This document shows positions 1,746-60,189 of a stretch of DNA of 64,000 nt, piece after piece (within the stretch, counting starts at the first letter, position 1; the number at the start of each line of letters is the position of its first letter). Position numbers and translations under genes: made by a program. Origin of the DNA: Mobula hypostoma (Eukaryota); assembly GCF_963921235.1 (NCBI RefSeq), contig NC_086097.1, positions 173,602,001 to 173,666,000 of the forward strand. The letters are read 5' to 3'. Below the pieces are notes generated by a model, which was given only the letters and a program-made list of their open reading frames with translations, was not told the DNA's origin and made no database searches.

Positions 1746-2888
1746 ATAGAAACATAGAAACATAGAAAATAGGTGCAGGAGTAGGCCATTCGGCCCTTCG
1801 AGCCTGCACCGCCATTTATTATGATCATGGCTGATCATCCAACTCAGAACCCAGCCTTCCCTCCATACCCCCTGACCCCTGTAGCCACAAGGGCCATATC
1901 TAACTTCCTTTTAAACATAGCTAATGAACTGGCCTCAACAGTTTGCTGTGGCAGAGAATTCCACAGATTCACCACTCTGTGTGAAGAAGTTTTTCCTAAC
2001 CTCGGTCCTAAAAGGCTTCCCCTCTATCCTCAAACTGTGACCCCTCGTTCTAGACCTCCCCAACATCGGGAACAATCTTCCCGCATCTAGCCTGTCCAAT
2101 CCCTTTAGGATCTTATACGTTTCAATCAGATCCCCCCTCAATCTTCTAAATTCCAACGAGTACAAGCCCAGTTCATCCAGTCTTTCTTCATATGAAAGAC
2201 CTGCCATCCCAGGAATCAATCTGGTGAACCTTCTTTGTACTCCCTCTATGGCAAGGATGTCTTTCCTCAGATTAGGGGACCAAAACTGCACACAATACTC
2301 CAGGTGTGGTCTCACCAAGGCCTTGTACAACTGCAGTAGTACCTCCCTGCTCCTGTACTCGAATCCTCTCGCTATAAATGCCAGCATACCGTTCGCCTTT
2401 TTCACCACCTGCTGTACCTGCATGCCCACTTTCAATGACTGGTGTATAATGACACCCAGGTCTCGTTGCACCTCCCCTTTTCCTAATCGGCCACCATTCA
2501 GATAATAATCTGTTTTCCTATTTTTGCCACCAAAGTGGATAACTTCACATTTATCCACATTAAATTGCATCTGCCATGAGTTTGCCCACTCACCCAACCT
2601 ATCCAAGTCACCCTGCATCCTCTTAGCATCCTCCTCACTGCTAACACTGCCACCCAGCTTCGTGTCATCCGCAAACTTGGAGATGCTGCATTTAATTCCC
2701 TCATCCAAGTCATTAATATATATTGTAAACAACTGGGGTCCCAGCACTGAGCCTTGCGGTACCCCACTAGTCACCGCCTGCCATTCTGAAAAGGTCCCGT
2801 TTATTCCCACTCTTTGCTTCCTGTCTGCTAACCAATTCTCCACCCACACCAATACCTTACCCCCAATACCGTGTGCTTTAAGTTTGCA
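1746..2888 (-). mobile_element. Young 5'-truncated CR1 LINE (RT C-terminal half plus 3' UTR and tail)
   Basis: ORF 1935-2906 has [14 protein letters not shown] and LVRPHLEYCVQFWSP. Tail is (ATAGAAAC)n on plus. 7-bp TSD cattata at 1742-1748 and 2889-2895. Confidence 0.95.
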
Positions 2889-5652
2889 CATTATATACAG
2901 GTACATATTATATACATATTATATACAGGTTATATTCTCCCCAGATTATTCATGCCCGATTTCTGTATGTACAAATGGGCATTGGAAAACCAATGGGATG
3001 GATTTGCCATCTGCTATGGAGCTGCAGGCATCTTCTGCTGTGTGGGAATTTGGTCTCAGTTTGTGGCAATATCTGGATGGTTTGGTTAAATGCCCAGGAC
3101 ATTACCTTTGGATGCCCTATGTCTCAATCAAATATATTGTTTGACAGGAAACATTTCTAACTTATGCACTGTTCAGGTTACGAATAGTTCTCAGGAATGT
3201 AAGTCTGTCAGGGGGAGGAACTGTAGAGTTGAGTCATTACACTGTTCCAATTTCAAACATGCAGATAGAAAAGCTAGCAATAAAAATATTGCTTCATTAG
3301 GATGGAAGCTATCGACAATAAGTTTACAGGCATTAAAAGTAAAATATATTAATTTCACAGTGGAATAACTGGAGTATACTAGTGAGAAAGTTAATTATTC
3401 CTCAATGGGCATCACAAACATCATTCTGTTATATTTGACAAATATAGTTGCAGAAAAACAGTGGAGAATATAACAAAACAAGTAGTAAACTGCAGGTTAA
3501 TGAAATTCACAAATCCACATATTAATACTTTAAAAACATGCACCAACAATAAAAAAAAATCCAATTTCTAATGCAAATAACCTATGCATAACCCAGAGTT
3601 GCTTTACTTGCATATCATATGCCATATTATATATATAGCACAGCATTTGCTTGAAGGATATGACTTTACAGTCAGCCATTTTCATTTTTAAAAGCTACCT
3701 TCAGAAGATACTGTCTCCAAATATAATGTCTGTCCGATGAGGCAAGATAAATGGAAAATAAATGCCACTGAAAGTGATGATCTCACCTGTAGATTGAATT
3801 CTATTTCATGAGCTCTGGCAAACATATGTGAGCAAAAACTACTGCAAACATTCCCTGCATCTATTTGCTTTTAGCTTGAATTCCATTTTAACTATTGGTG
3901 ATGAATGACCTAGAGCCCACATTTAATAAAGTACAAGTTGAAGCCTCTTAAAAATATATTCTTGTTCTGATTCCTTATGTAACAAATTGCTCAGAGGAAG
4001 GCTCGATGTTTATTACAGACCATTTATATTTCTATACAATAATTAGTAAATTAGTTTAGTATTGTCACATGTACAGTGAAAAATTTGTCTTGCATAATGG
4101 TCACATAAATTAATTCATTACAACAGAGTATTGAGGTTGTACAATGTAAAGCAACAACAATGCAGAATAGAAGTGCAGTAATTACAGAGATGGGTTGTAT
4201 TGTGGCTATAAATACCTAGGAAATAAATGACAAGCAATGGGTGGATATTTCAACCCAATTATCAACAGTGGAATTTCTGCAAGAATTTTCTATCACCAAC
4301 ACAACAACCAGAGTGCAAGGTAAATAGGATTAGGAGCACGTTAAGTTTGACGGCCAAGATGATATGCTGATCATTACTGGAGGTGGAGATGGGTGTCAAC
4401 AGAGCAATAGATTAGCAAAATTGGACGTGATAAAGGCATGGTTGAGGATTGTCGGCAGATTTTCCCCCCACTTATTCACAGGATGTTGACATTAATGACG
4501 AAGCACACATTTATCATCAATTGTCAACCAACAAAGATTATATTTAATTGAAATAAATACAAATGTTTGTACGTAATCGAATAAATATTCAGATAAATAT
4601 TTAATTGAAGAAAAAAATTGATGTATTTCTTTTTAAATAAAGTATGGAACTTAATCTACCTCCAGCATAAAGTAACCCATATTGGTGTTATTTCAGTTTA
4701 AGTCGTAACAATGAAAATTATTTTAAACAGGCATTTGATAATGTTCAGGGTGAATCAAGGCAATTTGTTATGTTTTATAGGCCTGGAATATAATCTGTGA
4801 ATGATTCTTTGACTGTAATTGTGTTGCCAATCATCTTAATTAAGATTTTTCTTGAATTTGTAGTGAAGTGAAAATTACTAATTATTAGTAAATATCTCCA
4901 ACTATCAATAATTTTGCTGATACAAATATCTGCATGGAAGCTATGATTTTCCTGTGTGGGCAGAAAGTACCATATTTTAATAGTACATGGCTACTCATTT
5001 TAGTTATTTCTCCCAAAATAAAGCAAAGATCACAAAATAATATAGAGTATTTGTTCAAAATTTATGCCAACTTGATAAACAAAAAGTCTATTTTAATCAT
5101 CTGTTTGAGAATTGCTTTGCTTGATCTGAATACTTCCAATAAACGGTCACTGAACATTCATTTGTTTCAAAGTCATCTTCATGTTGTAGTGTCAGTAACA
5201 AAAATGCATCTGCTCTGAGTGGGGGTGGTGTCCCCCCACCCAGATTTTGAAGATATTTTCAAGTCTATTTATTGGCATTTCTAGCTCATCATGTGACATG
5301 AAAGTCCACCATGTATTCTGGACCTCAGATCACAGGAAAGCCAGAACAGGTAGGAATGACAGGTCTCTTATCTGAAAGGCACTAATGAACCAGTTGGGTT
5401 TTTACAGCCATTTTAACTAGCACCAGCAAACCCACAAATTACCAGATTTACAGCTTGCTATGGTAGGATTTATACTCATAACATTTAGGTCGCTTGCCCA
5501 GCCCCACAATTACTATGTTACAGCTACCTGTAATTTACAATAATGATAGTCTATAAAGAAAAATACGGTTTGGTAAACATATGTACCTTTTTATTCATAC
5601 TTAGTAAGTGTGAAATTAAGGGAAATTGGTCGTCAGTAGTTACACAAATTTG

Positions 5653-6500
5653 CTCCAGAGACAGAGAGATCGAGAGGGTGTCTACAGGAGTGAGATACGC
5701 CAACTAGTGGAATAGTGCCATAACAACAACCTGGCACTCAACGTCAGTAAGACGAAAGAGATGATTGTGGACTTCCAGAAGAGTAAGACGAAGGAACACA
5801 TACCAATCCTCATAGAGAGATCAGAAGTGGAGACTGTGAGCAGTTTCAAGTTTCTGGCTGTCAAGTTCTCTGAGGAACTAACCTGGTCCCAACAAATCAA
5901 TGTAGTTACAAAGAAGGTAAGACAGTGGCTATACTTTATTAGGAGTTTGAAGAGATTTGGTATGTCAACAAATCACTCAAAAACTTCTATAGTTGTACAA
6001 TGGAGAACATTCTGACAGGCTGCATCACTGTCTGGTATGGAGAGGCTACTGCACAGGACCGAAAGAAGCTGCAGAAGGTTGTAAATCTAGTCAGCTCCAT
6101 CTTGGGCACTAGCCTACAAAGTACCCAGGACATCTTTAGGGAGCAGTGTCTCAGAAAGGCAGCATCTATTATTAAGGGCCTCCAGCATCCAGGGCATGCC
6201 CTTTTCTCACTGTTATCATCTGGTAGGAGGTACAGAAGCTGAAGTCACACACTCAGCGATTCAGGAACAGCTTCTTCCCCTCTGCCATTGATTTCTAAAT
6301 GGACATTGAACTCATGAACTCTACCTCACATTTTTTAATATATGTTTTTCCATTTTTTGCATGATTTTTAATCTATTCAATATGCATATATTGTCATTTA
6401 TTTATTTCCTTCTTCTATATTATGTATTGCATTGAACTGCTGCTGCTAAGTTAACAAATTTCATGACACATGCCGGTGATAATAAACCTGATTCTGATTC
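5653..6500 (+). mobile_element. Rex1/Babar-type LINE 3' fragment with a short Penelope-derived 5' stub
   Basis: KKVRQWLYFIRSLKRFG and ILTGCITVWYG motifs; tail aataaacctgattctgattc. The first 26 nt are identical to 10677-10702. Confidence 0.85.
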
Positions 6501-8104: not shown

Positions 8105-8290
8105 CAAAAGTGCTGAAAATCTGAAATGCAAACAAAACCAAAATGCTAGAAACACTCAGCATCTAGTGGAAGAGAAGCAGGTCTGAGACCATTCATCAGA
8201 ATAGACCAGTTCTGACAAAGGCTCTCAGACTTGAAACATTGGCTCTGTTTTTCTTTCCAGAGATACTGTTCTGTGCTTTCACTCCAAGTG
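8105..8290. mobile_element. Old degenerate Penelope-like terminal repeat (fold-back type relic)
   Basis: tgctgaaaatctga...aaaatgctagaaacactcagc, followed by cagttctgacaaaggctctcagacttgaaacattgg, a decayed version of the hammerhead-bearing repeat. Confidence 0.5.
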
Positions 8291-9420: not shown

Positions 9421-10700
9421 AGCAACACACAGAGAATGTTGGAGGAACTCAGCAGGCCAGACAGCTTCGATAAAAAAAAAGCACAGTCAACTTTTTAGGC
9501 CGAGACCCTTCAGCAGGACTGGAGAAAAAGAAGTTGAGGAATAGGTTTAAAAGGTAGGGGGAGGGGAGAGAGAAACACAAGGTGATAGATGAAACTGGGG
9601 GAGGGGAACAAAGTAAAGACCTGGGAAGTTGATTGGTGAAAGAGATACAGGGCTGGAGAAGGTGGAATCTAATAGGAGACCACAGAACATCATGGAAGAA
9701 AGAAGAAGGGGAGGAGCCCCAGAGGGAGACGATGGGCAGGCAAGGAGATAAGGTGAGAGGGGGTAAAGGGGATGGGGAATAGTGCAGGGGGGAGGGTGGC
9801 ATTAACAGAAGTTCAAGATGTTCATGCCATCAGGTTGGAGGCTACTAGACAGAATATAAGGTGTTATTCCTCCAACTTGAGTGTGGCTTCATCGCGACAG
9901 TACAGAGGGGCATAGATTGACATATTGGAATGGGAATGGGAAGTGGAATTAAAATGGGTGGCCACAGGGAGATCCCACTTCTTCTAGTGGATGGAGCGTA
10001 GGTATTTGGCGAAGTGGTCTCCCAATCTACATCAGGTCTCACTGATATACAGGAGGCCACACCGGGAGCAACAGACAAAGTATATGACTCCAACAGACTC
10101 ACAGGTAAAGTGTCACCTCACCTAGAAGGACTATTTGGGGCCCTGAATGGTAGTGAGGGAGGAGGTGAAGGGACAAGTATAGCACTTGTTCTGCTTGCAA
10201 GGATAAGTGCCGGGAGGAAGATCAGTGGGGAGGGACGAATGGTCAAGGAAGTCGCGTAGGGTGTGATCGCTGTCGAAAGCAGACAGTGGGGGGAGGGAAA
10301 GATGTGCTTGATGGTGAGATCCCATTGGAGATGGTGGAAGTTCCGGAGAATTATGTGCTAGAAGTGGAGGCTGGTGGAGTGGTAGGTGAGGACAAGAGGA
10401 ACCTTATCCCTGGTAGGGTGGTAGAAGGATGGAGTAAGAACAGGCATGTGTGAAATGGAAAAGAGGCTGTTGAGGACAGCCTTGATGGTGAAGGAAGGGA
10501 AGACTCTTCCTTTGAAAAAGGAGGAATGAAAAGCATCACCCTGAGAGCAGATGCTGCAGAGACAAAGGAATTGAGAGAAGGGGTGGCATTTTTATAAGTA
10601 ACAGGGTGGGAAGAGGCATAGTCCAGGTAGCTGTGAGAGTTTATGAGTTTATAATGGACATCAGTAGATAAGCTGTCTCCAGAGACAGAGAGATCGAGAG
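9421..10700 (-). mobile_element. Penelope-like element (Neptune-type): RT thumb, Cys linker, GIY-YIG endonuclease and terminal repeat, degraded
   Basis: Minus-strand peptides STDVHYKLINSHSYLDYASSHP and PGTYPCKQNKCYTCPF, plus a VIY..CSRCGLLYI GIY-YIG-like region. Ends in the agcaacacac...ggaggaactcagcaggcc repeat with a mutated hammerhead. Confidence 0.85.
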
Positions 10701-11340
10701 GGCATACTGGACTGAGATTTGCCAACTAGTGGAATGGTACCACAGCAACAACCTGGCACTCAACGTCAGTAAGATAAAAGAGCCGATTATGGACTTCAAG
10801 AAGGGTAAGACAGAGGAACACATACCAATCCTCATAGAGGGAATCAGAAATGGAGAGAGTGAACAGCTTCAAGTTCCTGGATGTCAAGATCTCTGAGGAT
10901 CTAACCTGGTCCCAACATATTGATGTAGTTATAAAAAAGACAAGACAGTGGCTATACTTCATTAGGAGTTTGAAGAGATTTGGAATGTCAACAAATCTCT
11001 CAAAAACTTCTATAGTTGTACCGTGGAGACCATTCTGACAGGCTGCATCACTGTCTGGTAATGGAGGGGCTACTGCATAGGACTGAAAGAAGCTGCAGAA
11101 GGTTGTAAATCTAGTCAGCTCCATCTTGGGCACTAGCCTACAAAGTACCCAGGACATCTTTAGGGAGCGGTGTCTCAGAAAGGCAGCGTCCATTATTAAG
11201 GACCTCCAGCATCCAGGGCATGCCCTTTTCTCACTGTTACCATCAGGTAGGAGGTACAGAAGCCTGAAGTCACACACTCAGTGATTCAGGAACAGCTTCT
11301 TCCCCTCTGCCATTGATTCCTAAATGGACATTGAAGCTTT
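10697..11340 (+). mobile_element. Rex1/Babar-type LINE fragment fused to the Penelope fragment
   Basis: FKFLDVKISEDLTWSQHIDVVIKKTRQWLYFIRSLKRFG; closely similar to 5680-6310. Confidence 0.85.
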
Positions 11341-12119: not shown

Positions 12120-13836
12120 TGACAACGTTTCCTCCAACACCACAAGGCTATGTGCTTAGCCCCCTGCTCTACTTGCTTTGCACTTATGTCTATGAGGATA
12201 AGCATAGATCCAATATCATACTTAAGTGTGCTGATGACATCACTGTTATTGGCCAAATCAAAGGTGGTGACAAATCATCAATAGGAGGGAAAATGAAAAT
12301 TTGGCTGAATGGTGCCACAACAATAGCCTCTTACTCAAAGTCAGCAAGACTAAGGAGCAGATTATTGGCGTCAGGAGGACAAAACCAAAGGTCCATGACC
12401 CAGTCCTCTTCGGAGGTGGAGAGGGACAGCAACTTTAAATTCCTCGGTGTTATCATTTAGGAGAAGCTGTCCTGGCCCAGCACATAAGTGCAATTATAAA
12501 GGAAGCACAGCACCACCTCTACTTCCTTAGGAGTTTGCGAAGATTTGGCATGACATCTAATCCTTTGACACACTTCTCTAAATGACTCGATGTGTAGTGG
12601 AGAGTATATTGACTGGCTGCATCACGGGCAGGTATGTCCAATGACTTTGAATAGAAAATCCTACTGTACAGGGTTTCTTCTTTGTTATGTTAAAATTAAA
12701 ATGGCTTCTTTGTTATGTTAATCCTTTAAACTGCTGCATATGTGAAATAAAATGGCTTCTATGTTATATTAAATGCAGAGAAAGTCTTTAGCTAGAAATT
12801 TGCTTGGGTTAATACAGATAGCAAAGGTACTATTAGCCAATGGGTGTCCATGTTATTTATTCTTTCTTGGGGTGATATGCTGTCTCATATGACTGGGAAC
12901 CAGGGGCTTTTGGCGGGGAGTTGGAGGAGAGACCGTGAGGACGACGGACGTGTGGGAAGGCTCAGGTTGATCACTCCGGGTTGTCCCCAGCTGCGAGTCA
13001 ATGGGGTCCGGGTGGTCCCAAAGAGGGTCCTGAGCTCTAACGTGTGCACAAAGAAATTGAACTTTGATAAGTCTGGTGCCTTTTCCATTCCTTTATTTGT
13101 ATTGAACTTACATTAATTTCATAGACTTAGTAATATCTATAAAGTGTAATTGGTAAAACGTACAGTGTGTGCTGACTGATGATTGATGTTTGAAGCTGAA
13201 TTCGGTGGGAAGTGTACAGCAACCGACACAACCGGGAGACCAGGCGGGCGGGGTTTCCCCTAGATATATACGAGCCAATATAGCTGAGCGTTACACTACA
13301 AATATTAGTGGTTATGGCCCACCTCACCAGTGAGCACGTCTACACAGAGTGCTGTCGCAGCATCCATCCTCAGGAACCCCCACCACCTGGGACAGCTCTC
13401 TTCTCACTGCTAACATCTCACTGCTAACATCAGGAAGGTGGTATAGGAGCCTCAGTACTCACACCAATAGGCTCAGGAACAGTTATTACCCTTCAACTGT
13501 CAGGTTCTTGAACTAAGGGGAATAACTTCAATCAACTTCATTTGCCTCATCACTGAAAAGTTCTTATAACCTATCAACTTGCTTTCAAGCACTCTTCATC
13601 TATGTTTTCAATATTTATTGCTCATTTTATTATTAATATTACTTCTTTCATTTTGTATTTGCACAGTTTGTTGTCTTTAACACTCTGGTTGAATACTCAC
13701 GTTGGTGTTTCATTGATTCTATTAGGATTATTATTCCATTATGAATTTATTGAGTATGCCTGCAAGAAAATGAATCTCAGGGTTGTAGATGGTGACATAT
13801 ATCTTCTTTCATAATAAATTTACTTTGAACTTTGAA
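12120..13836 (+). mobile_element. Degraded Rex1/Babar-type LINE interrupted by a solo LTR
   Basis: PQGYVLSPLLY and ADD motifs; tail aataaatttactttgaactttgaac. The sequence resumes across the LTR as aaaatcctac|aaatattagtgg. Confidence 0.8.
12665..13295. mobile_element. Solo LTR, 631 bp (Gypsy/ERV-type)
   Basis: TGTA...TACA termini flanked by a 4-bp TSD ctac (12661-12664 and 13296-13299), cleanly splitting a Rex1-type element. Confidence 0.8.
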
Positions 13837-13890
13837 CCCAAGTATAATGGTTTGAATAAGCCTGAATGGAACAGATTGAATTCCTATTCT

Positions 13891-14096
13891 AGCAACATAC
13901 ATCAAAGTTGCTGGTGAACGCAGCAGGCCAAGCAGCATCTATAGGAAGAGGCGCAGTCGACGTTAGTCCTGACGAAGGGTCTCGGCCTGAAACGTCGACT
14001 GCGCCTCTTCCTATAGATGCTGCTTGGCCTGCTGCGTTCACCAGCAACTTTGATGTATGTTGCTTGAATTTCCAGCATCTGCAGAATTCCTGTTGT
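13891..14096 (+). mobile_element. Young Penelope-derived fold-back insertion: 74-bp perfect inverted arms, 26-nt loop and unpaired tail
   Basis: 13891-13964 is the exact reverse complement of 13991-14064. Tail is tgaatttccagcatctgcagaattcctgttg. Duplication ttgaattcctattcta at 13876-13891 and 14097-14112. Confidence 0.9.
13965..14000 (+). ncRNA. Minimal type I hammerhead ribozyme motif
   Basis: AGUC-CUGACGA-AGG(GUCUCGG)CCU-GAAA-CG-UC/GACU: intact core, stem I AGUC:GACU, 3-bp stem II, palindromic ACGU stem III. Predicted cut after C13996. Confidence 0.75.
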
Positions 14097-15689
14097 TTGA
14101 ATTCCTATTCTATGTTATTTTCTTATGCATCATTCTGAAATTTTAGGTTCAAGAGTGCATTTTCACAAAGCATGAAAAGTTTCCTGTTTCATTAATAGGT
14201 TTAGATGTATTAGTACTATAGGTAAAACCCTTGACATCCATTTAACAAAGTACACATTTCAACTAAGAGTAATAAAATGATAGCTAGAACAAAGAAAATG
14301 GTAATATCCTGTTTAGTATTACGTAATCTCTGACACTATGTTTATAAGTAATTTAGGGCAAGGCTATGAGATGACAGTTGTTACATTGAAATAGAGTCAA
14401 GTGATAAGTGGAGTTCAACTGGCCAATTTGACAGCGTTTAAGGCAATGTTATCTTTTTATGTACAATTTTTTTATTTTGAAGACCACATCTTCAGAAGCA
14501 GCGTGTGCAAGCTTACATATAATCATCCATTTTGGGTTCTAAAGCATAGGGGTTTGGCTGTTGATGAATAGAATCTTCCAGTGCCATGAAGATTATGTCA
14601 CAAAGTTGCTTTTAACAACATTTGAAACAAATTCTGCTCATCTGAAGGTAAGAGCACTTAATTCCAAATTGGAACAGATTTTAACCAGGCAAGAGATCTG
14701 CCGATATCCACAAAGCAAAGAGCAACACAGTCAGCCAGTCTTGGTGCCAATCCAAACAAACCAAATGCCTCTTGGGTAAAGAGATTCATGCTTACAAGCT
14801 CCTAATATTAATTTAGGACATAAACTAGAGAATGCCAGAAATCTTCAACAGATCCCATAGTGGGAAACTGCAGGTGCTAGAAAAACAATGACTGCATTGG
14901 AACTGAGAATGCAGTGGGAAGATAGCCAGTATAAGAGGTTAGAGGGAGGGGTAAAACAGAAACTGGTTGGTAATATGTCAAATCAGATTGAGGAAACGAG
15001 TGATGAGCAGAAGGAACTAGGTGGGGTAGAGAGAGAGGTGAGTGTTGAGAAAGAAGTAGGTCAAGGATAGGTGAAAACCAATAAGGGAAGGATGATGGGA
15101 GATGGAACTAGGTGGGGGATGGGTTCGGAAAGGTGACATGGTCATAGCACTGGTTCTGATTAAAAGTCTACAACATTGCAAATTGCAAATCTTTTACCAA
15201 ATCCAGTGCTAACCAAAGCTCTTCATGGACTGCAGAGATTTATTATTTCTTTATGAAGACTAATTTTATGACCAGTTCTTCTAGCAATGATCAAAAAGAT
15301 TTGTGAAATATCTGTAATTTGAGGCAAACATATTTAAAATAGTTATATTAAACAGAAGGTTGTGCTTTGCACCGTACTGCTACCACAAAACAACAAATTC
15401 AATGTCATATATTGTAAGTCAGAGATAATAAACTTGTTTCTGATTCTGCCTGCAAAAGGAAGCATGTACCGCTGTTAAATCTCTAATATTAGCCAGCATT
15501 TGCAGTTTATATTTTGCCAAAAAACATGATTCCAGAAGAGAAATATAAAACTTGCCAAAGAAAACTGAGGAGCAAAAGATGCTGTGTCAACTGAAAGAAC
15601 ACAACTTCATGATATCTGAAGCCAAAGTATCAATAACAATGTTCCAGTTTTTTTAAATCATGCTTTATTTGGTCATGGTTATGGGTTTC

Positions 15690-30743: not shown

Positions 30744-32554
30744 AATATTTACTACATTGCAAAAACAGTGAAATAATTATAGCATCAACTATTTGGGTAT
30801 TTTAATTTTTCAAAATTATATTAGGCCCTATATTACAACACATGAATAATCAGGACGAGATCAAATGGAGAACTTAAGTGATGGCTAGTTATCTGGTTAG
30901 AAACAGATTAATCTGAGGACAAATGGTACTTTGGCCAATATATACTTAAACATAAAGCTTAATGTTTTCTCAAATATTATTAAAATAAACATGAGGTAGT
31001 TGAAGTTAAACCCACAATATGAATATATTCATAGCATTGCTTCTGTGTACCACTGGATTGCTTAAACAATTGAACACACCAGCCAAGCGAAATAAATAAA
31101 TCTCATTTGGGATCATAACAAAAGGAAATATAGATTACCAGTAAACACATCAATCTAAAAATCAGCAAAAGTTAAAAGACAGAGATGTACTTCTGGGTAT
31201 ATTCCACAAGATGTCCCAATTAAAAATTGGGTTGAAATAATACAAAGGGAGGCAATTAGAAACATGAATTGTATTAAATTGTATTAAACAGTCCTTAATT
31301 TATGAAGGAGGAATCAATGAAAACTAGCCTGCATTCACAGTGAATTGATCGCACTGAAACAGATTCTGAGAGAGACAAATCTAAAAGTAAGACAGGACGG
31401 TCCAGAAAGAAAATCCTAATCTTTCTTCCCTCAGAATGACATAAATAAGTCTAAATCAAAATATAAAATGTTATTAATTAATTTTGATAAATTTATTTTT
31501 CCCTTTAAATTAAATTTTTAAAATCAATGCACATGTCGATTAAATTACCACCTTTCCATTTCCCTCACCAAATATCCATCCAATAAGAGAAGCAATTTTG
31601 GTTATGTATTTCAATTCAGCAGTGTCTTTACTTTAGCTTAGGTTTAAGACAAGATCAATATATTTTGTCCATCTATTCTACTGCAATTCATCAGTGCTAA
31701 GCATGCATATTCATGTTTTGCAATCCTTCCATCACTCTGATCCTCTCTATCATTAACCATCTTCTATCCATGTTTTACATTCAACCCAAATTCGACTTTC
31801 GAATTCTACAGGAGCTAATCATATTTCTGGCACATGATCAAGCATTTTCATAAAATCAAATGTACAGTAATTTAGAACAATCACACAGCTAGTATAATAT
31901 ACTGTTCAATGGCAAAAGATCTCCTTTTCCATAAAGTAAATAATGATTTTTTTTATTACTCAATCAAGATAGATGTTAATACACCTTACCTCTCATGATC
32001 TCATCTAGCAATTTTCCTACCAATGAAATAATTTTTCAGCTCTGACCAGGCATGAAAAAGAGCAAGTACAGGTCAGAACAGCAAAAGTGGATGCTGTTAC
32101 ATTTGTGATTATGACCAAACAAGTAAGTAATTTAAGTCATTTTCACTCCTGGTTCAGATTAACTTTCATCTGTTAGAATTGCATAGCATATGGTGCAAAG
32201 TTACAGGACTTTTGGTCCAAAGTATCTGCACTGATGTTTCTGCTCAACACAGAATCAACATGCACAGAGTTGGCTTCAGATCACGTCACATTCCAGTTAG
32301 AACATATGAAACAGAAGGATTAGGTAACTTGGCCATTTGCACCTGTCATGCCACTCAATCAGGTCATGCCAGATCCTTTACAACCACACCCCTTTAGCCT
32401 TCCCCCTTGATATCCCAATATCTATCAATTTTTGTACTGAATTCCTTTAAAGGACACTGGTGATGCCACTTATGCAACACTGCATACATGTCTTGTCTCC
32501 CTAAGAAAGGATATACTTAAAAGAAGAGGGTATGCAACAAGAATTCACAAGAAC

Positions 32555-33360
32555 AACACATACAAAATGCTGGAGGAACTTAGCCAGTTAGGCAGGGTCT
32601 ATGGAAGGGAATAAATAGTCGAAGTTTAAAGTTGTGACCCTTCATCAAAACTGGAAAGGAAGGGGGCAGAAGCCAGCAGGGGAAGGTGGGCGGGTTGGTG
32701 GGGAGGCAGGATTAAGTAAGAAGCTGGTAGGAGTTTGGTGGAAGAGATAAAGGGTTGAAGAAGAATGAATCTGGTAGGAGAGGACAATAGACCTGGAAGA
32801 AAGGAGGAGGGGAACCAGAGAGAAGTAATAATATATGAATATACATATATATTAATAAGTTAAATTGAATAAGTAGCGTGAAAAGAGAAAAAAAATGAGG
32901 TAATGTTCATTGGTTCAATGCCGATTGAGAAATCTGATGGCAGGGGGGAGGAAACCATTCCTGAATCATTGAGTATGTGTCTTCAGACTCCTACACTTCT
33001 TCCCCGATGGTAGCAATGAGAAGAGAGCATGTCCTGGGTGATGGGGGCCCTTAATGATGGATACTGCCTTTTTGAGGAATCACTCCTTAAAAATGTCCTG
33101 GGTGCTGGGGAAGCTAGTGCCCATGATGGAGCTGACTGAGCTTACAACCTTTTGCAGCTCATTTTGATCCTGTGCAGTGCCACTCCCCCATACCAGATGG
33201 TGATGTAGCCAGTTCGAAATCAATTTTCATGCCATCAGATTGGAGGCTACCCAGATAGAATACAAGGCATTGTTCCTGTAAGCTGAATTTAGCCTCATCA
33301 TAACAGTCCTGTCCATGGCCTTCACTACTACCTACAGCAGCTGCAGAATCTCTTGTGTTT
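32555..33360 (-). mobile_element. Old Penelope-like terminal repeat/GIY-YIG relic, interrupted by a minus-strand Rex1-type fragment (~32830-33212)
   Basis: Starts caacacatacaaaatgctggaggaact and ends with the tail ctgcagaatctcttgtgttt. Confidence 0.65.
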
Positions 33361-33499
33361 ATAAAAAAGAACAATTTACTGCGACTGAAATGTTTATTGA
33401 GCTGAGTCCCAGAGTATGAAGATATAATAATAACTGAACCTTGAACATAAAGATCTTCCTTCCACCAGAATACACAATTAAAACTGGTTGTAAAAATAA

Positions 33500-33810
33500 A
33501 ACACACAAAATGCTGAAGGAACACAGTCTGTCAGGAAACGTTTATGGAAATGAATAAACAGTCATCGTTTCAAGCCAAGACCCTTCTTCAGGACTGAAAA
33601 GGGGTTGCTCCGGGTGGCAGAAGAGGAGGTCCTCATCCAACATATCGGAATGAAAATGAAAATCGGAATTAAACTGTTTGGCCACAGTTAGTTCTGCTTT
33701 TGGCAGGTGGACTGCAGGTGCTCTATGAAGCAGTCCCCCAATTTACGACAGGTCTCACCATTGTAGAGGCAGTCACATCGTGAAGACCAGACACAATAAA
33801 CAACCCAGAA
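33500..33810 (-). mobile_element. Old Penelope-like relic
   Basis: aacacacaaaatgctgaaggaacac...gacccttcttcaggactg, then sequence similar to the GIY-YIG region at 9930-10090. Confidence 0.6.
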
Positions 33811-40181: not shown

Positions 40182-41689
40182 TAAGTTCTTTTATCATGTG
40201 TACATCGAAACATACGGTGAGATATGTCATTTGCGTCAACCTGAGGATGTGCTGGGGTCAGCCTGCAAGTGTCACCACACATTCCAGCACCAAAATGGAA
40301 TGGCCCTAATAAAAAACACAGAACACAACAAGCAACAAAACAACAACAGCAAAACAGGACTGTTCCCTCATCCCTCATGGTCAGGGTAACATTCACACTT
40401 TTTCCCTGCCTTTTCATTTTCTGAAAGTGTCAGCAAGTTATCCAAATACAGTATAGCACCCAACACCATCTGCCAGAGGTTACAACATCAGTCAGCCTTC
40501 ACAACGTGAGCAACATGTTACACAAAGCAGCTTAACTGTCCATTCAACGGCTACATCATTTCAAGCTGTTACTGATATTCCTTTTGTTCCCTCCACTACT
40601 TTCCCTGATAATTAGACTAACTTGTTTTCTCTCTTAATCAGTTCTGCCTAAGGGTCTTTCAACCCGAAATGTTGACTGAAGTGTTAACATTATCCTACAA
40701 AAACAAACTGCGCAACTAAGAAAGCATCATCAAAGACTCCCACCATCCAGCTCATGCCCTCTTCTCACTGCAGGTACAGGAACCTGGAGCCCCACATTCT
40801 TCAACCAACCTGTAAAACCCTAATTCTGCCTCAGACAGTATTTCCCTCAATTTGCACTAGTGTTGTTATTTTCTGTTTATTGTATTGTGCATGTATAATG
40901 TTAACGTATAATGTTAAGTTTATGTCATTTATGTTTGTAAAGTACTGTGCTGCGGCTGAAAAAACTAATTTGAATGGTACTTAAACCATGTTTGTAAATG
41001 CCCATGACAATAAACTTGAATCTGAGCAATTAAAAATGTCCCACGCAGAAATTTTTTTTAAAATCCTACTTTACACAGGATCTTCACATATAAACATAAG
41101 TACTTTACAGTGGACATTAGAAACTTGAATTTAAAGGAAAAAATGTTGCCATTGAGCAGCATCTATGGAGAGAGAATTAACATTTTAGGTTGAATGCTTG
41201 TTTCATACAGTTGGCTCTCTTCCACAGGACTCATCATTTTACCAAAAGCAAAGATCACTAAATTTCCAAAAAAAAAGTCCTTGATTGTGTCAATTGACTG
41301 TGTCAAAGACCTGCTAGATAAAGAGCATATTAAGAATTGGAGCTACAAGCAAAGCTATAAATTGCTGCCAAGTGACATGATTGATATTGGATCCAGTGCT
41401 GTTGCTTCAAACAGTGGTGGGAGAATAATTTTGCTTTGTGGAAGGCAGTGGGCCAGAACTGAATAGTGAAAATAGAAAAGTATGTTGGAATTTCTACTTG
41501 ATTACTTAAGGGGTCAGGAAGTATAACTTCAGAAGAAGAATTGATTCTGAAAAGCCAGAACTTAATATCGGCAAGTCACCAAATGGTGACAGCATCTATC
41601 CAAGGCTGTTAAAGCTGGTTATAGACAGTTGCCAACATTTTTCAGTCCTTCTTACGTAGAAAAATTTATCTGAAGGGCTTCAGTGATAT

Positions 41690-42770
41690 TCAAGGGAAGA
41701 AGGGGTAGAGACAGGGGAAAGAGAAAGAAGGGGAGCAGGGAAATGGAGTGGAAAGAGGAAGTGGGAAAAGAAGAAGAGAGAGAAGAAGTGGAGAAAGGGA
41801 GGAAAAGGAGGATAGAGGGGGCAGACTTGAAGAGATAGAGTGAGGGTCAAGAAAGGTGTAAGAAGGCAAGAGGAGAGGGATAAGTTGGGAGAGAGAGGAG
41901 TGAGAAGCGGAGAGGGGTGTGTGCAGAAAGGGAGATGAAAGGGGAAGGAAGAAGTGGAGAAGAAGAGAGGAGAAAGCAAGAGTGGAGAGGGAGGAGAGGG
42001 AAGAGGGAGGAGAGGGAAGAGGGAGGAGAGGGAAGAGGGAGGAGAGGGAAGAGGGAGGAGAGGGAAGAGGGAGGAGAGGGAAGAGGGAGGAGAGGGGGAA
42101 GGGGGAAAAGGAGAAAGGGAGGAAAGGGGGAAAGAAGGGAAAGGAGAAAGGAGAGAAAAGGGAAAGAGAAGAAAAGGGGAGAGAGGAGAAAGAGGGAAAA
42201 AGGGAGAGAGGGGAATTAGGAAGGGAAATGAGTAACAGGGGAAAGGGAGAGGGGAGGACATAGGGGGAGAGAGGGGAAATAGCAAGAGAAATGAGAGAAA
42301 AGAAATGGGTAAGAGAGGGGAAAGGGGCAGAAGAGGGCAAAGGGGGAGAGAGCAGAAAGGGAGGAGAGAGGGGAAAGATGAGGGACAGGAAAAAGGAAGG
42401 GGACAAGAAGCATTTGGAAGAAATTAGAGTGGGAGGGGAGAAGAGAGGAGAGAAAGGGCAGATGGGAACAAAGAGGGAAGATGAGGGTGAGAAAGAGTGA
42501 AGAGGATGAGGGTGGAAGAAATGGGCACAGCAGGGGGAAAATAAGTAGAGAAGGCAAGGGGGGAGGGAGGAAGGGAGGGAGAGAGAGAGAAAGCAAACAG
42601 AGGATAGGAACAAGAAGCAGGTGTAAGCAGGGAAAGGAGCTGTGAATGAGCAGAAGAGGCAAGTTGAAAATGTGAGGAAGAGTGAGGGGGAAAAGAAGGG
42701 AGGGAGGGAGGGGAGAGAGTGGGATGAGAAAGTATGAGTGATGCGAAGGTGGGAGGGACAGAAAGATGTG
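41690..42770 (+). repeat. Purine-rich (GA) low-complexity tract including a 16-bp minisatellite (GAGGGAGGAGAGGGAA) x ~7 at 41987-42096
   Basis: Seen directly; it explains the stacked low-complexity ORFs here. Confidence 0.95.
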
Positions 42771-43079
42771 TAAACTGTTGACCTTAATGGCCTAAATCAA
42801 GCAGGATGCATGACCATCACTGCACCCAATGACAGCAGTTCAAAAAGGGAAGAAGTAGTATGAGTCAACATTGATAAATGCAGAACTCAGCTAACAAACT
42901 ATCAAAAATAATTAATTGCTTATTAAGATTATGGAGGAATGGCAAGACATTTAGTCAGAATACCCTCAATGACAAAACAATATCCTGCTTAAATTTACTT
43001 CACGGATTAAACAAAATATTGAAAATTATAACCACAAACAGCAGCTAAGATTCAACCTCGATTTTGTCGTGCATAAAGC

Positions 43080-56325: not shown

Positions 56326-56519
56326 CACAAACAAGAGAAAATCTGCAGATGCTGGAAATCCAAGCAACACACACACAGTGCTGGAGGAACTCAGCAGGCC
56401 AGAAAGCATCTAAGAAAAAGTTGACATTTCGGGCTGAGCCCTGATGAAGGGTTTCAGCCCGACTGTTTTCTCTTTTCCCGAGATGCTGCCTGGCCTGCCA
56501 AGTTCCTCCAGCATTTTGT
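56326..56519 (-). mobile_element. Older Penelope-derived fold-back insertion (tail plus imperfect inverted arms)
   Basis: acaagagaaaatctgcagatgctggaaatcc tail, arm agcaacacac...tgctggaggaactcagcaggcc, central ctgatgaagggtttcagccc, return arm gctgcctggcctgccaagttcctccagcattttg. Confidence 0.75.
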
Positions 56520-58889
56520 AGGAGAGGTGACAAACTTAGATTGTTATTCTGAAGTGTGGGGTGAGTGCAGACTTGATGAAAGCTCATACGATCATGAGAG
56601 GCACAGATATGGCAGACATTAAGAATCTTTTTCCCATGGGAGAAATGTCAAATACTAGATTTCATGCATTTTAGGTGAGTGGGGCAAGTTTAAGGAAGAT
56701 GTGCAGAGCAAGATCCACCGAGGGTGGTCCCTGGAATGGGCTGCCATGGTAAGTGATAGATGCAGGTACGACATGGCTTATAAGATGTTAAGTAGACACA
56801 TGAATATGCAGGAAATGGTAGGATATTGATCATGTGCAGGCAGAAAAGAGTTCACTTATTTTGATATTGTGAATGGTGAAGACACTGTGAGCCAAATGGC
56901 CTTCTATGGTGCTGTACTCTTCTATGAGTACAGCATCTGTTCAATGCCCTATGTGTTTACTCTATCCAATCTTCTATGTCAAAAACATCCAATATAATTA
57001 GTCTATCCACTCGTCTATATTCAATGTCCCATGTAATTAAGCGATCCAAACTTATTATTTTCCATGTTTCCAGTTACCACTTCCTTAAATGTTGATTCTA
57101 ATTTTTTCCACCACTGGATGTCAGGCTTACTGTTCTACAGCTCCATGTTTTATCTTTATCTCATTACTTAATAAGTGAGATTACATTTACTACTTTCCAA
57201 CTGCAAGAACTTTACAAAATACTATGGAATTTTAAAATCAATTAGTACATCCACTATCCACACAGTCACCTCCAAGGATCCAAATCACCATGTCCTGGGA
57301 ATTTATCACATTTCACATCTTAACAATGTTGTCAATCCTAATGTTTTACTTATATTAAGATTTACGACATTTCAAGTCCTCTGTTCACTCTTGATTTTTA
57401 GGTTTTCTATCTCTGTCTATAAAGACAAATGCAGTATATCTTTTCTCTGCAGTATATCTTTCCTCTGCCAATTCTTTAATCCCCTATATAATCTCTCCTT
57501 TCAGTCTCTATGGGACCTAGGTTAATTTTAGCTTCTCGTTTCCTCTTTTCAAATCTATTGAAATACCTACAGTCTTCTTAGGCATCTCACTAATCTACTC
57601 TCTTTTTTTTTTATATTTCACTGCTTTGGTTCTCCTTTTAATGAATTCTGAAAGCTTCCCAATTCTCAGTCTTAATGCTTTGCTTGGCAATATTTGAGCA
57701 AATGGTAATTTTAATTTCTCTTTAGAGACACAACTGATCCACCTTTTATATTTTAAAGAGATATATCTTACTTTTAAACCTTGAACTAATTCTTTAAACA
57801 TGAACTTGGATTACTGTCATGGCTTTTATTGCAATTTTCCAATGTACTAACAACAAATCACACCACTGGCCAATAAACCTTTGTTTCAAGATTGAACTAA
57901 ATCACTTTCAATTTTTAAATAAAATTCCAAAGTATTATGGGCACCCTTCCATAATGGTCCCTTACATATCACGTTATTGATTATGCTTTCTCTTTTTGCA
58001 AATGATGATCTAAAATAGATTGTTGTTTCACTGATTCCTTCTTTACCAGTTTGCTTTGCACTTTAAAATTTTTTTTGTAATATTTAACTGACAGCATTGG
58101 TTACTTTGCAAGTATGTCTGTTAAGATGCTTTGATTAGCACTGCCATAAAGATTCAGATAAAGAGCCCTTAAAAGTGACGTTGAAGAACTTCCCAATCAC
58201 TTTATTCACACTACTCGGATCAAGGATGCATTATTATCAATTAGATAGGCTCTCCATCATTGCATCTGAAAGGCATGGGGAAGCTGTGGATGGCGAATCA
58301 GTACATGCAGCCAGGCCAGTCTGATTCAGTCCAGAATATTCTGTGAAAACCACAGAAAGTAAAACTGGAAAGCACAATAATGAATCTTCTCTTAAATAAT
58401 CAAAAAATATAGGACATCTAAAAGGCATTTGGATAAGTACAAACGTTTGTACATGAATAGGAAAAAGGGATAGGAGTCAAGCCAGACCCAGGCAAACAGT
58501 AAGCATTTTGGTTAGCATGGACAGATTGGGCAATCAGCCTTGTTTCTATGCTGTATAACTTTATAAGAGAACATCACAGGTTAGTTGTATTGCTGATAGC
58601 ACAGAAAGTTGTCGTAGGTTACAACAAGTCATTGGTAGGAATGCAGAGCTGAGTTGAAAAGTAATAGATGGAGCTCAATCTAGAAAAGTGTGAAGGATAC
58701 ACTTCGGAAGGTTAATCTGCAACACAGAGTACAAGATCAGTGGCAGGATTCTTCGAATTGTGGAGGAACAGCGGGATCTCGGGGTCCATATCAGAATCAG
58801 AACCAAAATCAGATTTATTATCACCAGCAACATACATCAAAGTTGCTGGTGAACGCAGCAGGCCAAGCAGCATCTATAGGAAGAGGCGC

Positions 58890-58925
58890 AGTCGACGTTT
58901 CAGGCCGAGACCCTTCGTCAGGACT
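58890..58925 (-). ncRNA. Minimal type I hammerhead ribozyme motif (mirror copy, sense to VPS13B)
   Basis: Exact reverse complement of 59034-59069. Confidence 0.7.
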
Positions 58926-59033
58926 AACTGAAGGAAGAGTGAGTAAGGGATTTGAAAGCTGGAGGGGGAGGGGGAGATGCATCTCCCCCTCCCCCTCCAG
59001 CTTTCAAATCCCTTACTCACTCTTCCTTCAGTT

Positions 59034-59069
59034 AGTCCTGACGAAGGGTCTCGGCCTGAAACGTCGACT
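59034..59069 (+). ncRNA. Minimal type I hammerhead ribozyme motif
   Basis: agtc ctgacga agggtctcggcct gaaa cg tc gact, identical to 13965-14000. Confidence 0.75.
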
Positions 59070-60189
59070 GCGCCTCTTCCTATAGATGCTGCTTGGCCTG
59101 CTGCGTTCACCAGCAACTTTGATGTATGTTGCTTGAATTTCCAGCATCTGCAGAATTCCTGTTGTTTATTATCACCAGCATGTGACATGAAATTTGTTAA
59201 CTTAGCAGCAGCAGTTCAATGTAATACATTATATAGAAGAAAAAAAATAATAAATCAATCAATTACAGCATACATATATTGAATAGATTAAAAATTGAGC
59301 AAAAAACAGAAATACTATATATTAAAAAAGTGAGGTCCATTGTCCATTAAGGAATCGGATGGCAGAGGGGAAGAAGCTGCTTCTGAATCTCTGAGTGTGC
59401 CTTCAGGCTTCTGTACCTCCTACCTGATGGTAACAGTGAAAAAAGGGCATGCCTTGGTGCTGGAGGTCCTTAATAATAGACGTTACCTTCTGAAACACCA
59501 CTCCTTGAAGATATCCTGGGTACTTTGTAAGCTAGTACCCAAGATGGAGCCGACTAAATTTACAACCCTCTGCAGCTTCTTTCGGTCCTGTGCAATAGTC
59601 CCTCCGTACGAGACAGTGATGCAGCCTGTCAGAATGCTCTCCACAGTTTTTAAGAATATGCGTTGACATACCAAATCTCTTCAAACATGTAATGAAGTAT
59701 AGCCGCTGTCTTGCTTTCTTTATTACATCAATCTGTTGGGACCAGATTAGATCCTCAGAGATCTTGACACTCAGGAACTTGAAATCAAAGTTGCTATGCA
59801 AGTTGATAGGGTGATTATTAAAGTGTATGGTGTATTGCCTTCATTAGTCACGTTATTGAGTTCAAGAGCTCCTTGAACACGACTACTGTATCTGCTTCTA
59901 CCACCTCTGCGACAGCACATTCCAGGGACAATCGACTCAGTGCAAGAAACATGCGCAGAATTCTTGTTTGAACTTTTTCCCTCTCATCTTAAAGCCATCC
60001 TTCTAGTATCTGACACTTCCACCCACTGAAAAACAGACTCTGACCATTATCCCTATTTATGACTTTTTTAGTTCTAAATACTCCTACCAAGAAGCCACAT
60101 GGTTGCATTGGTCCAGAACAAGACTGCAAGTTAGCTAAACCCTTCTTACAGCTACTACTGTCTAATCAGGCCACATCCTGGTGCACAGC

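What the first reader, a model, noticed from the sequence alone, without database searches (positions are those of the whole stretch)
13876..14112. Independent second copy with the same end-points suggests a stereotyped fold-back integration mechanism
Seen: the sequence matches the 58.8-kb element wherever they overlap. The inverted arm again starts at AGCAACATAC, the same tail is left unpaired, and there is again a 16-bp duplication, but at an unrelated target and with a different turn-around point. The junction sits on a 3-nt GTT microhomology (gacGTT / GTTagtcc). Inference: both DNA ends are primed at two fixed positions ~31 nt apart on the element RNA (twin-priming-like) and joined at variable internal points. 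Alternatively, a longer palindrome lost its centre by cruciform resolution. Two such events within 45 kb suggest a high-copy, recently active family that creates hairpins in introns.
Basis: partly seen in the sequence, partly recalled or inferred. Interest (0 to 1): 0.8.

Follow-up and report, generated by a model that had tools for sequence, protein, structure and literature searches.

The report
Two-armed Penelope-like retroelement insertion
This hairpin-shaped repeat is a real, recent insertion made of two head-to-head scraps of the tail end of a Penelope-like jumping gene, with about 33 extra bases on one side only, an arrangement already described for this class of element and likely made by copying its RNA from two nearby start points.

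Summary
Observation confirmed. At 13876-14112 a 16-bp duplication encloses an inverted 74-nt arm, a 26-nt loop and a direct arm with a 32-34-nt unpaired tail. Both arms are identical to the 58.8-kb copy; the flanks are unrelated. A contig from a related organism joins 13875 straight to 14097, giving the empty site with one copy of the 16-mer. The insert is the 3' terminal repeat of a Penelope-like element (PLE). It carries a minimal hammerhead motif, and a 75%-identical older repeat in this window ends a broken RT/GIY-YIG reading frame with ray homologues. Inverted repeat + one-sided 30-40-nt tail + duplication + palindromic junction is the published PLE layout (PMC3846280, PMC8557442), and two RT start sites bounding the tail were shown in vitro (PMC11167929). 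Both arms copy the same segment, so this is not classical twin priming. Two copies cannot separate two-ended priming from fold-back or a later central deletion. The intron claim was not tested. The scan noted this same architecture several times elsewhere in this genome. Ordinary; interest low.

The parts
13876..13891 (+). Left copy of the 16-bp target-site duplication; its last base is shared with the arm start
   Evidence: single copy in the empty site of run X5, record 22
13891..13964 (-). Inverted, tail-less arm: 5'-truncated terminal repeat of a Penelope-like element, equivalent to 14064 back to 13991
   Evidence: 74/74 complementary to 13991-14064; mapping
13962..13964 (.). GTT junction microhomology, assignable to either arm
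   Evidence: 3 nt or more in 4.1% of random truncation pairs
13962..14098 (+). Direct arm: 5'-truncated terminal repeat with tail
   Evidence: 137/137 identical to 59031-59167; loose ends before 13962 continue like the 58.8-kb arm (table 7)
13965..14000 (+). Minimal type-I hammerhead motif: helix I 13965-68/13997-14000, core CUGACGA 13969-75, extra A 13976, helix II 13977-80/13985-88, GAAAC, palindromic ACGU 13992-95, predicted cut after 13996. In a transcript of this locus its 3' half is predicted to be buried in the 74-bp stem
   Evidence: motif scan, pairing, compared by eye with PMC4209133; activity not tested; no Rfam hammerhead hit
14065..14098 (+). Unpaired 32-34-nt tail, present on one arm only
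   Evidence: same tail at 59134-59167 and at 56329-56362(-); loose-end pile at 14098-14099
14097..14112 (+). Right copy of the target-site duplication; its first 2-3 bases are shared with the tail end
58814..59180 (.). Sister insertion: 154-nt perfect palindrome with centre ATGCAT, same tail, own 16-bp duplication, inside an older repeat
   Evidence: paralogous empty site at 6390-6500(-)
9421..10725 (-). Older, broken Penelope-like body (end of RT, CX4CxxC linker, GIY-YIG with internal CxxC) followed about 300 nt downstream by a related hammerhead repeat that stops at the tail-less end
   Evidence: tblastn E 5e-96 to P0001; 71% identity; repeat 77/102 identical to 13965-14064, nhmmer E 8e-14
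56329..56520 (.). Older two-armed copy of the same superfamily in the opposite orientation, tail on one arm only, no clear duplication left
   Evidence: tail arm 66/80 identical and ending at the same place

Best explanation
This is a recent, very short insertion of two head-to-head pieces of the 3' terminal repeat of a Penelope-like retroelement inside one target-site duplication, likely made when the element's protein cut both target strands and began reverse transcription at two preferred RNA sites about 33 nt apart. Shown: the two arms, the one-sided tail, the duplication, the empty site, the hammerhead-like motif and the link to an RT/GIY-YIG frame through an older relative. From literature on another PLE: cutting and extension of both strands, and two RT start sites that bound the tail. 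Inferred: a staggered cut of at most 16 nt left two 3' ends; one primed at the tail end, the other at the tail-less site, helped by a 5-of-6-nt match between target end and RNA; both cDNAs stopped early and annealed by their 3' ends (GTT/AAC here, self-complementary ATGCAT at 58.8 kb); fill-in gave the hairpin. Because both arms copy the same segment, two template copies (two RNAs, or two repeats of a tandem transcript) or strand displacement would be needed. The inverted arm runs 3-6 nt past the predicted hammerhead cut, so the template was likely uncut. The insert encodes nothing and is likely dead on arrival. Confidence that it is a PLE insertion: about 0.95; that two-ended priming made it: about 0.6.
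For: Anatomy and 100% identity of two copies with unrelated flanks. Empty sites for both copies. Older PLE body in the window ends in a 77/102-identical repeat exactly at the tail-less end, and another older copy ends at the tail end. All 9 protein hits, of 280 candidates, are from the rays Mobula hypostoma (2) and Hypanus sabinus (7); 5 of 9 have weak GIY-YIG hits and 1 of 9 a weak RVT_1 hit, all below Pfam cut-offs; Atlas neighbours of P0003 carry HTH_animal, RVT_1 and GIY-YIG at 0.96-0.97. Loose-end pile at the tail end in 3 of 4 runs among the rows shown. PMC11167929: PAc cuts and extends both strands, the tail is the sequence between the two RT start sites, and uncut RNA is the main substrate. 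PMC3846280: inverted pLTR, 31-bp tail, 8-10-bp duplications, palindromic junctions. Target ends match the element 5 of 6 at the tail-less start in 2 of 2 copies; 5.8% of window positions would do so at any of 7 registers (noticed after the fact).
Against: Only two young copies were examined; no genome is held. No intact partner with an identical repeat was found; the link to RT/GIY-YIG runs through a 75%-identical older copy. The tail-less end appears in the shown loose-end rows only once (3 contigs in X17 at 14064; 1530 rows were cut), so its fixity genome-wide is untested. The loose ends at 14099 share a few more letters before diverging, so tail ends vary by several nt. [quoted passage not shown] PMC3846280 reads the palindromic junctions as self-priming, and PMC8557442 ascribes the tail to endonuclease resolution. 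The direct PLE fragments gave no Pfam hit. The X1 contigs at the two junctions reach only about 20 nt into the insert, short of the tool's 31-letter rule for bridging.
Confidence: 0.6

Rival explanations
1. Same PLE insertion, but made by one priming event and a fold-back. A cDNA primed at the tail end stopped, its 3' end (AAC) snapped back onto its own GTT across a 26-nt loop, copied itself, and was cut or joined about 33 nt short of its start.
For: Gives the same sequence; the A junction has a 3-nt stem and a feasible loop. Self-priming is the reading in PMC3846280, and endonuclease resolution is offered for the tail in PMC8557442.
Against: The 58.8-kb copy has no loop, which suits two ends annealing at ATGCAT unless the native sequence there is itself palindromic (not known). 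Single-armed old copies also end at the tail-less site (9.4 kb), and in PAc both tail borders are RT start sites, which explains a fixed tail-less end without a cut.
Confidence: 0.27
2. The insertion began as a longer palindrome like the 58.8-kb copy and later lost its centre by cruciform processing or microhomology-mediated deletion.
For: Removing 58900-59033 (134 nt, GTT at the ends) from the 58.8-kb copy gives 13891-14098 exactly. Microhomology-mediated deletions are reported in PLE copies (PMC3846280).
Against: Needs an extra event in a copy with no substitutions; the deletion would be lopsided (80 vs 54 nt); the perfect 308-nt palindrome of the same age survives intact. It does not explain the tail or duplication, so it can only add to a PLE insertion model.
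Confidence: 0.1
3. A non-autonomous fold-back or MITE-type DNA transposon, a microRNA-like hairpin gene, a segmental duplication or an assembly artefact.
For: Long perfect inverted repeat with a duplication; Rfam hairpin models of miRNA score 44-46 bits.
Against: Repeats are not terminal on both sides (one-sided tail); arm length and axis differ between copies; the sequence is the end of an RT/GIY-YIG element; Rfam scores are about half the gathering thresholds; flanks unrelated; empty site in organism B and junction-side contigs without mismatches in X1.
Confidence: 0.03

Closest known systems
Endonuclease-bearing Penelope-like element insertion units with an inverted 5'-truncated pLTR and optional tail, e.g. 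Pen2a_Av of Adineta vaga (PMC3846280; passages and Discussion read) and the general scheme in PMC8557442 (passages read)
   Same: Head-to-head inverted copy, 31-34-nt tail on one end only, one duplication around the whole unit, palindrome or short overlap at the inverted junction.
   Different: Both arms are cut down to 74-188 nt with no reading frame; duplication up to 16 bp against 8-10 bp in the rotifer examples; host is a ray-like fish by protein homologues.
Poseidon from Anolis carolinensis, PAc (PMC11167929; parts 1-2 of 4 read, supplements not read)
   Same: Two 3' ends 30-40 nt apart bounding the tail; hammerhead upstream (88 and 122 nt from helix II here, 111-118 nt for the main start region in PAc); template apparently not cut by the ribozyme; AT-rich targets.
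   Different: The older body here has a CX4CxxC linker, absent from Penelope/Poseidon and present in Neptune and Nematis (PMC8557442). Target ends match the element 5 of 6 in both copies, whereas PAc started at non-homologous sites in vitro.
Minimal hammerheads of metazoan PLEs (PMC4209133; parts 1-2 of 4 read)
   Same: Short helix I, conserved core, extra nucleotide before helix II, no helix III, palindromic 15.2-16.2 region.
   Different: Helix II is 4 bp with G-U at the 10.1-11.1 position rather than 7-8 bp closed by G-C; cleavage untested; predicted to be half buried in the hairpin at this locus.
L1 twin priming and dual priming (PMC2837659; passages read)
   Same: Both target 3' ends primed; inverted pieces inside one duplication; short junction microhomology.
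   Different: Twin priming gives non-overlapping fragments with an internal deletion and a variable internal site; here the arms overlap fully and both starts are near fixed sites. It resembles the proposed dual priming on two RNAs. No poly(A) tail.

Membership tests
Penelope-like elements (EN+) | Terminal repeat belongs to an element with RT followed by C-terminal GIY-YIG endonuclease | tested here: met
   Through an older relative only: 77/102-identical repeat about 300 nt downstream of a broken frame matching P0001 at E 5e-96; homologues have weak GIY-YIG and RVT_1 hits below cut-off and Atlas neighbours with these families
Penelope-like elements (EN+) | CxxC between GIY and YIG (CCHH motif) | tested here: met
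   GVIY-x-C-x2-C-GLLYI in the window frame and in P0001, read by eye against PMC8557442; the histidines were not assigned
Penelope-like elements (EN+) | Inverted 5'-truncated repeat next to the direct one, with a 30-40-nt tail on one end | tested here: met
   definition in PMC8557442 and PMC3846280
Penelope-like elements (EN+) | Target-site duplication of variable length | tested here: met
   16-mer single in both empty sites
Penelope-like elements (EN+) | Hammerhead motif in the terminal repeat | tested here: met
   Core, helix I and palindromic centre present; no Rfam hit; fold z -0.35
Penelope-like elements (EN+) | RT groups with PLE/telomerase RTs in a tree | not tested
   Only the RT C-terminal part is in the window; no reference PLE set was at hand
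Penelope-like elements (EN+) | Intact autonomous copy with the identical repeat | not testable with these tools
   No genome held; scans of viral and metagenome contigs gave no relevant locus
Neptune/Nematis clades of PLEs | CX2-5CxxC motif in the RT-endonuclease linker | tested here: met
   CKQNKCYTC in the older window copy, CKRNKCYTC in P0001; definition in PMC8557442. Clade not confirmed by a tree
Active hammerhead ribozyme | Self-cleavage after GUC | not testable with these tools
   Needs an in vitro assay; the inverted arm passes the predicted cut by 3-6 nt
L1-type twin-priming inversion | Two inverted, non-overlapping fragments with an internal deletion, and a poly(A) end | tested here: not met
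   Arms overlap over 74 and 154 nt; no poly(A); definition in PMC2837659
MITE / fold-back DNA transposon | Inverted repeats at both termini, fixed internal layout | tested here: not met
   One-sided tail, axis differs between copies

The most novel reading that the evidence does not exclude
These miniature insertions record a dual-primed integration step that has not been shown for any Penelope-like element: a reverse-transcriptase dimer holds two template copies, one subunit always starting at the tail end and the other at the tail-less site, which it finds by 5-6 nt of pairing with the cut target, and the two short cDNAs are stitched by their 3' ends. A young, very abundant family with recoverable empty sites would let this be read out from thousands of natural events.
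Probability: 0.3. Interest if true: 0.45.

Novelty: new member of a known kind. Interest (0 to 1): 0.15.

Why it matters
By itself it matters little: it is one more truncated Penelope-like insertion with the published layout. Its use is as data. The later steps of PLE integration are stated to be unvalidated (PMC11167929), and young two-armed copies with known empty sites give exact cut, start and join positions that can test two-ended priming against fold-back. If such copies lie in transcribed regions they would form perfect 74-154-bp RNA hairpins, but that was not tested here.

Tried and rejected
Pattern scans for further copies: 0 loci in viral contigs, 0 in metagenome contigs; a second pattern gave 1 locus, L001, a 25-31-nt match in 57% GC sequence with no other similarity, judged chance. 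Rfam on 13800-14200: 6 matches at E up to 10, none at gathering level, no hammerhead family; the miRNA hits reflect the perfect hairpin. Pfam on three broken window fragments: no relevant hit. No RNA holder was listed for 13000-15000; run X17 is only guessed to be RNA and did not cover the unique right flank; this says nothing on expression. A search for a host gene was not completed, so the intron claim stays open. A small stem just before the tail-less end folds in 4 of 4 copies tried, but only the young copy is mildly better than shuffles (z -2.16; others -0.99, 0.84, -0.81), so I do not claim a conserved start-site structure. Turn at the hammerhead cut site: rejected for this copy, the inverted arm passes it by 3-6 nt. 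No convincing duplication for the older 56.3-kb and 8.2-kb copies (best 6 and 7 nt). Paper searches: Penelope + twin priming + inverted, 2 papers, listings only, neither titled on PLE mechanism; Penelope + retrotransposon + stingray, 0; Penelope + Neptune + cartilaginous + transposable elements, 1 paper, listing only; PLE mechanism since 2023, 6 listed, only PMC11167929 on the subject. The library lacks most subscription papers, and no supplements were read; those of PMC11167929 (Fig. S2, genomic ends) may already cover the end statistics.

Full report
Observation. The sequence is as described. A 16-bp direct repeat (13876-13891, 14097-14112) encloses an inverted arm (13891-13964) that pairs 74/74 with 13991-14064, a 26-nt loop, and an unpaired tail ending at 14096-14098. 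The direct part 13962-14098 is 137/137 identical to 59031-59167. The 58.8-kb copy has 154-nt arms without a loop and a different 16-bp repeat. The flanks of the two loci are unrelated. A shared 16-mer did not occur in any of 3000 random 40x40-nt window pairs.

Insertion proven by empty sites. In run X5 (organism B) one 2113-nt contig covers 13773-13875 and continues at 14097-14500 with consecutive record positions, 3 other letters and 1 gap on the right side (record 22). The ancestral site therefore has one copy of the 16-mer and lacks 221 nt. In run X1 (organism A) two contigs match the junction sides without mismatch, though they reach only about 20 nt into the insert. For the 58.8-kb copy, a paralogous repeat at 6390-6500(-) matches both flanks in one piece with one 15/16 copy of its 16-mer. 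Segmental duplication and assembly error are thus unlikely.

What it is. The 58.8-kb arm finds five older relatives in the window at E below 1e-4. One, at 9421-9565(-), is 77/102 identical to 13965-14064 and lies about 300 nt downstream of a broken frame that matches protein P0001 at E 5e-96 and 71% identity. All 9 protein hits among 280 candidates come from two rays. Five of 9 have weak GIY-YIG hits and 1 of 9 a weak RVT_1 hit, all below Pfam cut-offs; the window fragments themselves had no relevant Pfam hit. Atlas neighbours of P0003 carry HTH_animal, RVT_1 and GIY-YIG. The frame shows a CxxC between GIY and YIG and a CX4CxxC linker, which PMC8557442 gives as marks of PLE endonucleases and of the Neptune/Nematis clades (passages). 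No tree was built. The direct arm holds a minimal hammerhead motif at 13965-14000, matching by eye the description in PMC4209133 except for a short helix II closed by G-U. Rfam did not detect it and cleavage is untested.

Two preferred 3' ends. The old 9.4-kb copy stops at the tail-less end; the old 56.3-kb copy has one arm that ends at the tail end. In one search, 161 contigs of X1, 170 and 125 of X5 and 41 of X17 run off into unlike sequence at 14098-14099 (agreement 0.41-0.44). Their consensus shares a few more letters, so tail ends vary by several nt. The table was cut (1530 rows not shown) and shows the tail-less end only once (3 contigs), so that end was not tested genome-wide. About 60,000 contigs per run were laid in X1 and X5, with summed depth near a million over the insert against 5-25 on the unique right flank; the tool warns this is not a copy number.

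Comparison with print. PMC3846280 describes an inverted pLTR, a 31-bp tail on one inverted repeat, 8-10-bp duplications and palindromes at the inverted junction. PMC8557442 gives the inverted 5'-truncated copy and the one-sided 30-40-bp tail as general PLE features. PMC11167929 shows in vitro that a PLE protein cuts and extends both strands, that the tail lies between two RT start sites, and that uncut RNA is the main template; later steps are called unvalidated.

Mechanism. I favour two-ended priming (about 0.6). Both target 3' ends are extended, one from the tail end and one from the tail-less site; both cDNAs stop early and anneal by GTT/AAC here or ATGCAT at 58.8 kb. This is not classical twin priming, which yields non-overlapping fragments with an internal deletion (PMC2837659); it resembles the dual priming proposed there. 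The target end matches the element 5 of 6 at the tail-less start in both copies, against 5.8% of window positions at any of 7 registers; this was noticed after the fact and rests on two cases. The inverted arm passes the predicted hammerhead cut by 3-6 nt, which fits an uncut template. Against this reading: PAc showed no strand difference in start sites and no target homology in vitro; the 3-nt junction overlap occurs in 4.1% of random pairs; a single cDNA folding back gives the same sequence (about 0.27); and deleting 58900-59033 from the 58.8-kb copy reproduces this locus exactly (about 0.1).

Limits. No genome was available, no intact partner was found, the intron claim was not tested, and no supplements were read. 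Earlier notes of this scan report the same architecture several times in this genome; they are unchecked and agree with a reading I had already written down.

Verdict. A real, young, non-coding Penelope-like insertion with the known inverted-arm-plus-tail layout. New member of a known kind; interest 0.15.

Noticed in passing
window 9421-10725 (-): Broken Penelope-like body (RT end, linker zinc-finger motif, GIY-YIG) with a tail-less terminal repeat; its 5' end abuts a LINE fragment near 10.7 kb.
   Followed up: yes
window 56329-56520: Older two-armed copy in the opposite orientation with the tail on one arm; its junction lies inside hammerhead helix II; no clear duplication remains.
   Followed up: partly
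window 32535-33804 (-): Penelope endonuclease fragments (33804-33599 and 33305-33195) are interrupted by a same-strand terminal repeat at 33494-33602, then a LINE piece, then another repeat at 32535-32672; possibly a nested or partial-tandem insertion.
   Followed up: no
window 8105-8273: Weak hits on both strands (E 0.02 and 0.33) suggest a very old two-armed copy.
   Followed up: partly
window 58814-59260 and 6390-6500 (-): The 58.8-kb copy sits inside the end of an older repeat; a paralog of that repeat at 6.4 kb serves as its empty site.
   Followed up: yes
window 13965-13990: The 26-nt loop of the hairpin is exactly the 5' strand of helix I, the core and helix II of the hammerhead motif; both truncation points bracket the ribozyme core. 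One case, may be chance.
   Followed up: partly
window 13640-13840: Another abundant repeat end lies just left of the insertion (very high contig depth in all four runs).
   Followed up: no
window 41680-42800: About 1.1 kb of purine-rich low-complexity sequence with a 16-nt tandem unit.
   Followed up: no
window 1748-2893 and 60960-62112: Two about 95% identical LINE reverse-transcriptase fragments in opposite orientation 58 kb apart, each with a long open frame (327 and 213 aa).
   Followed up: no
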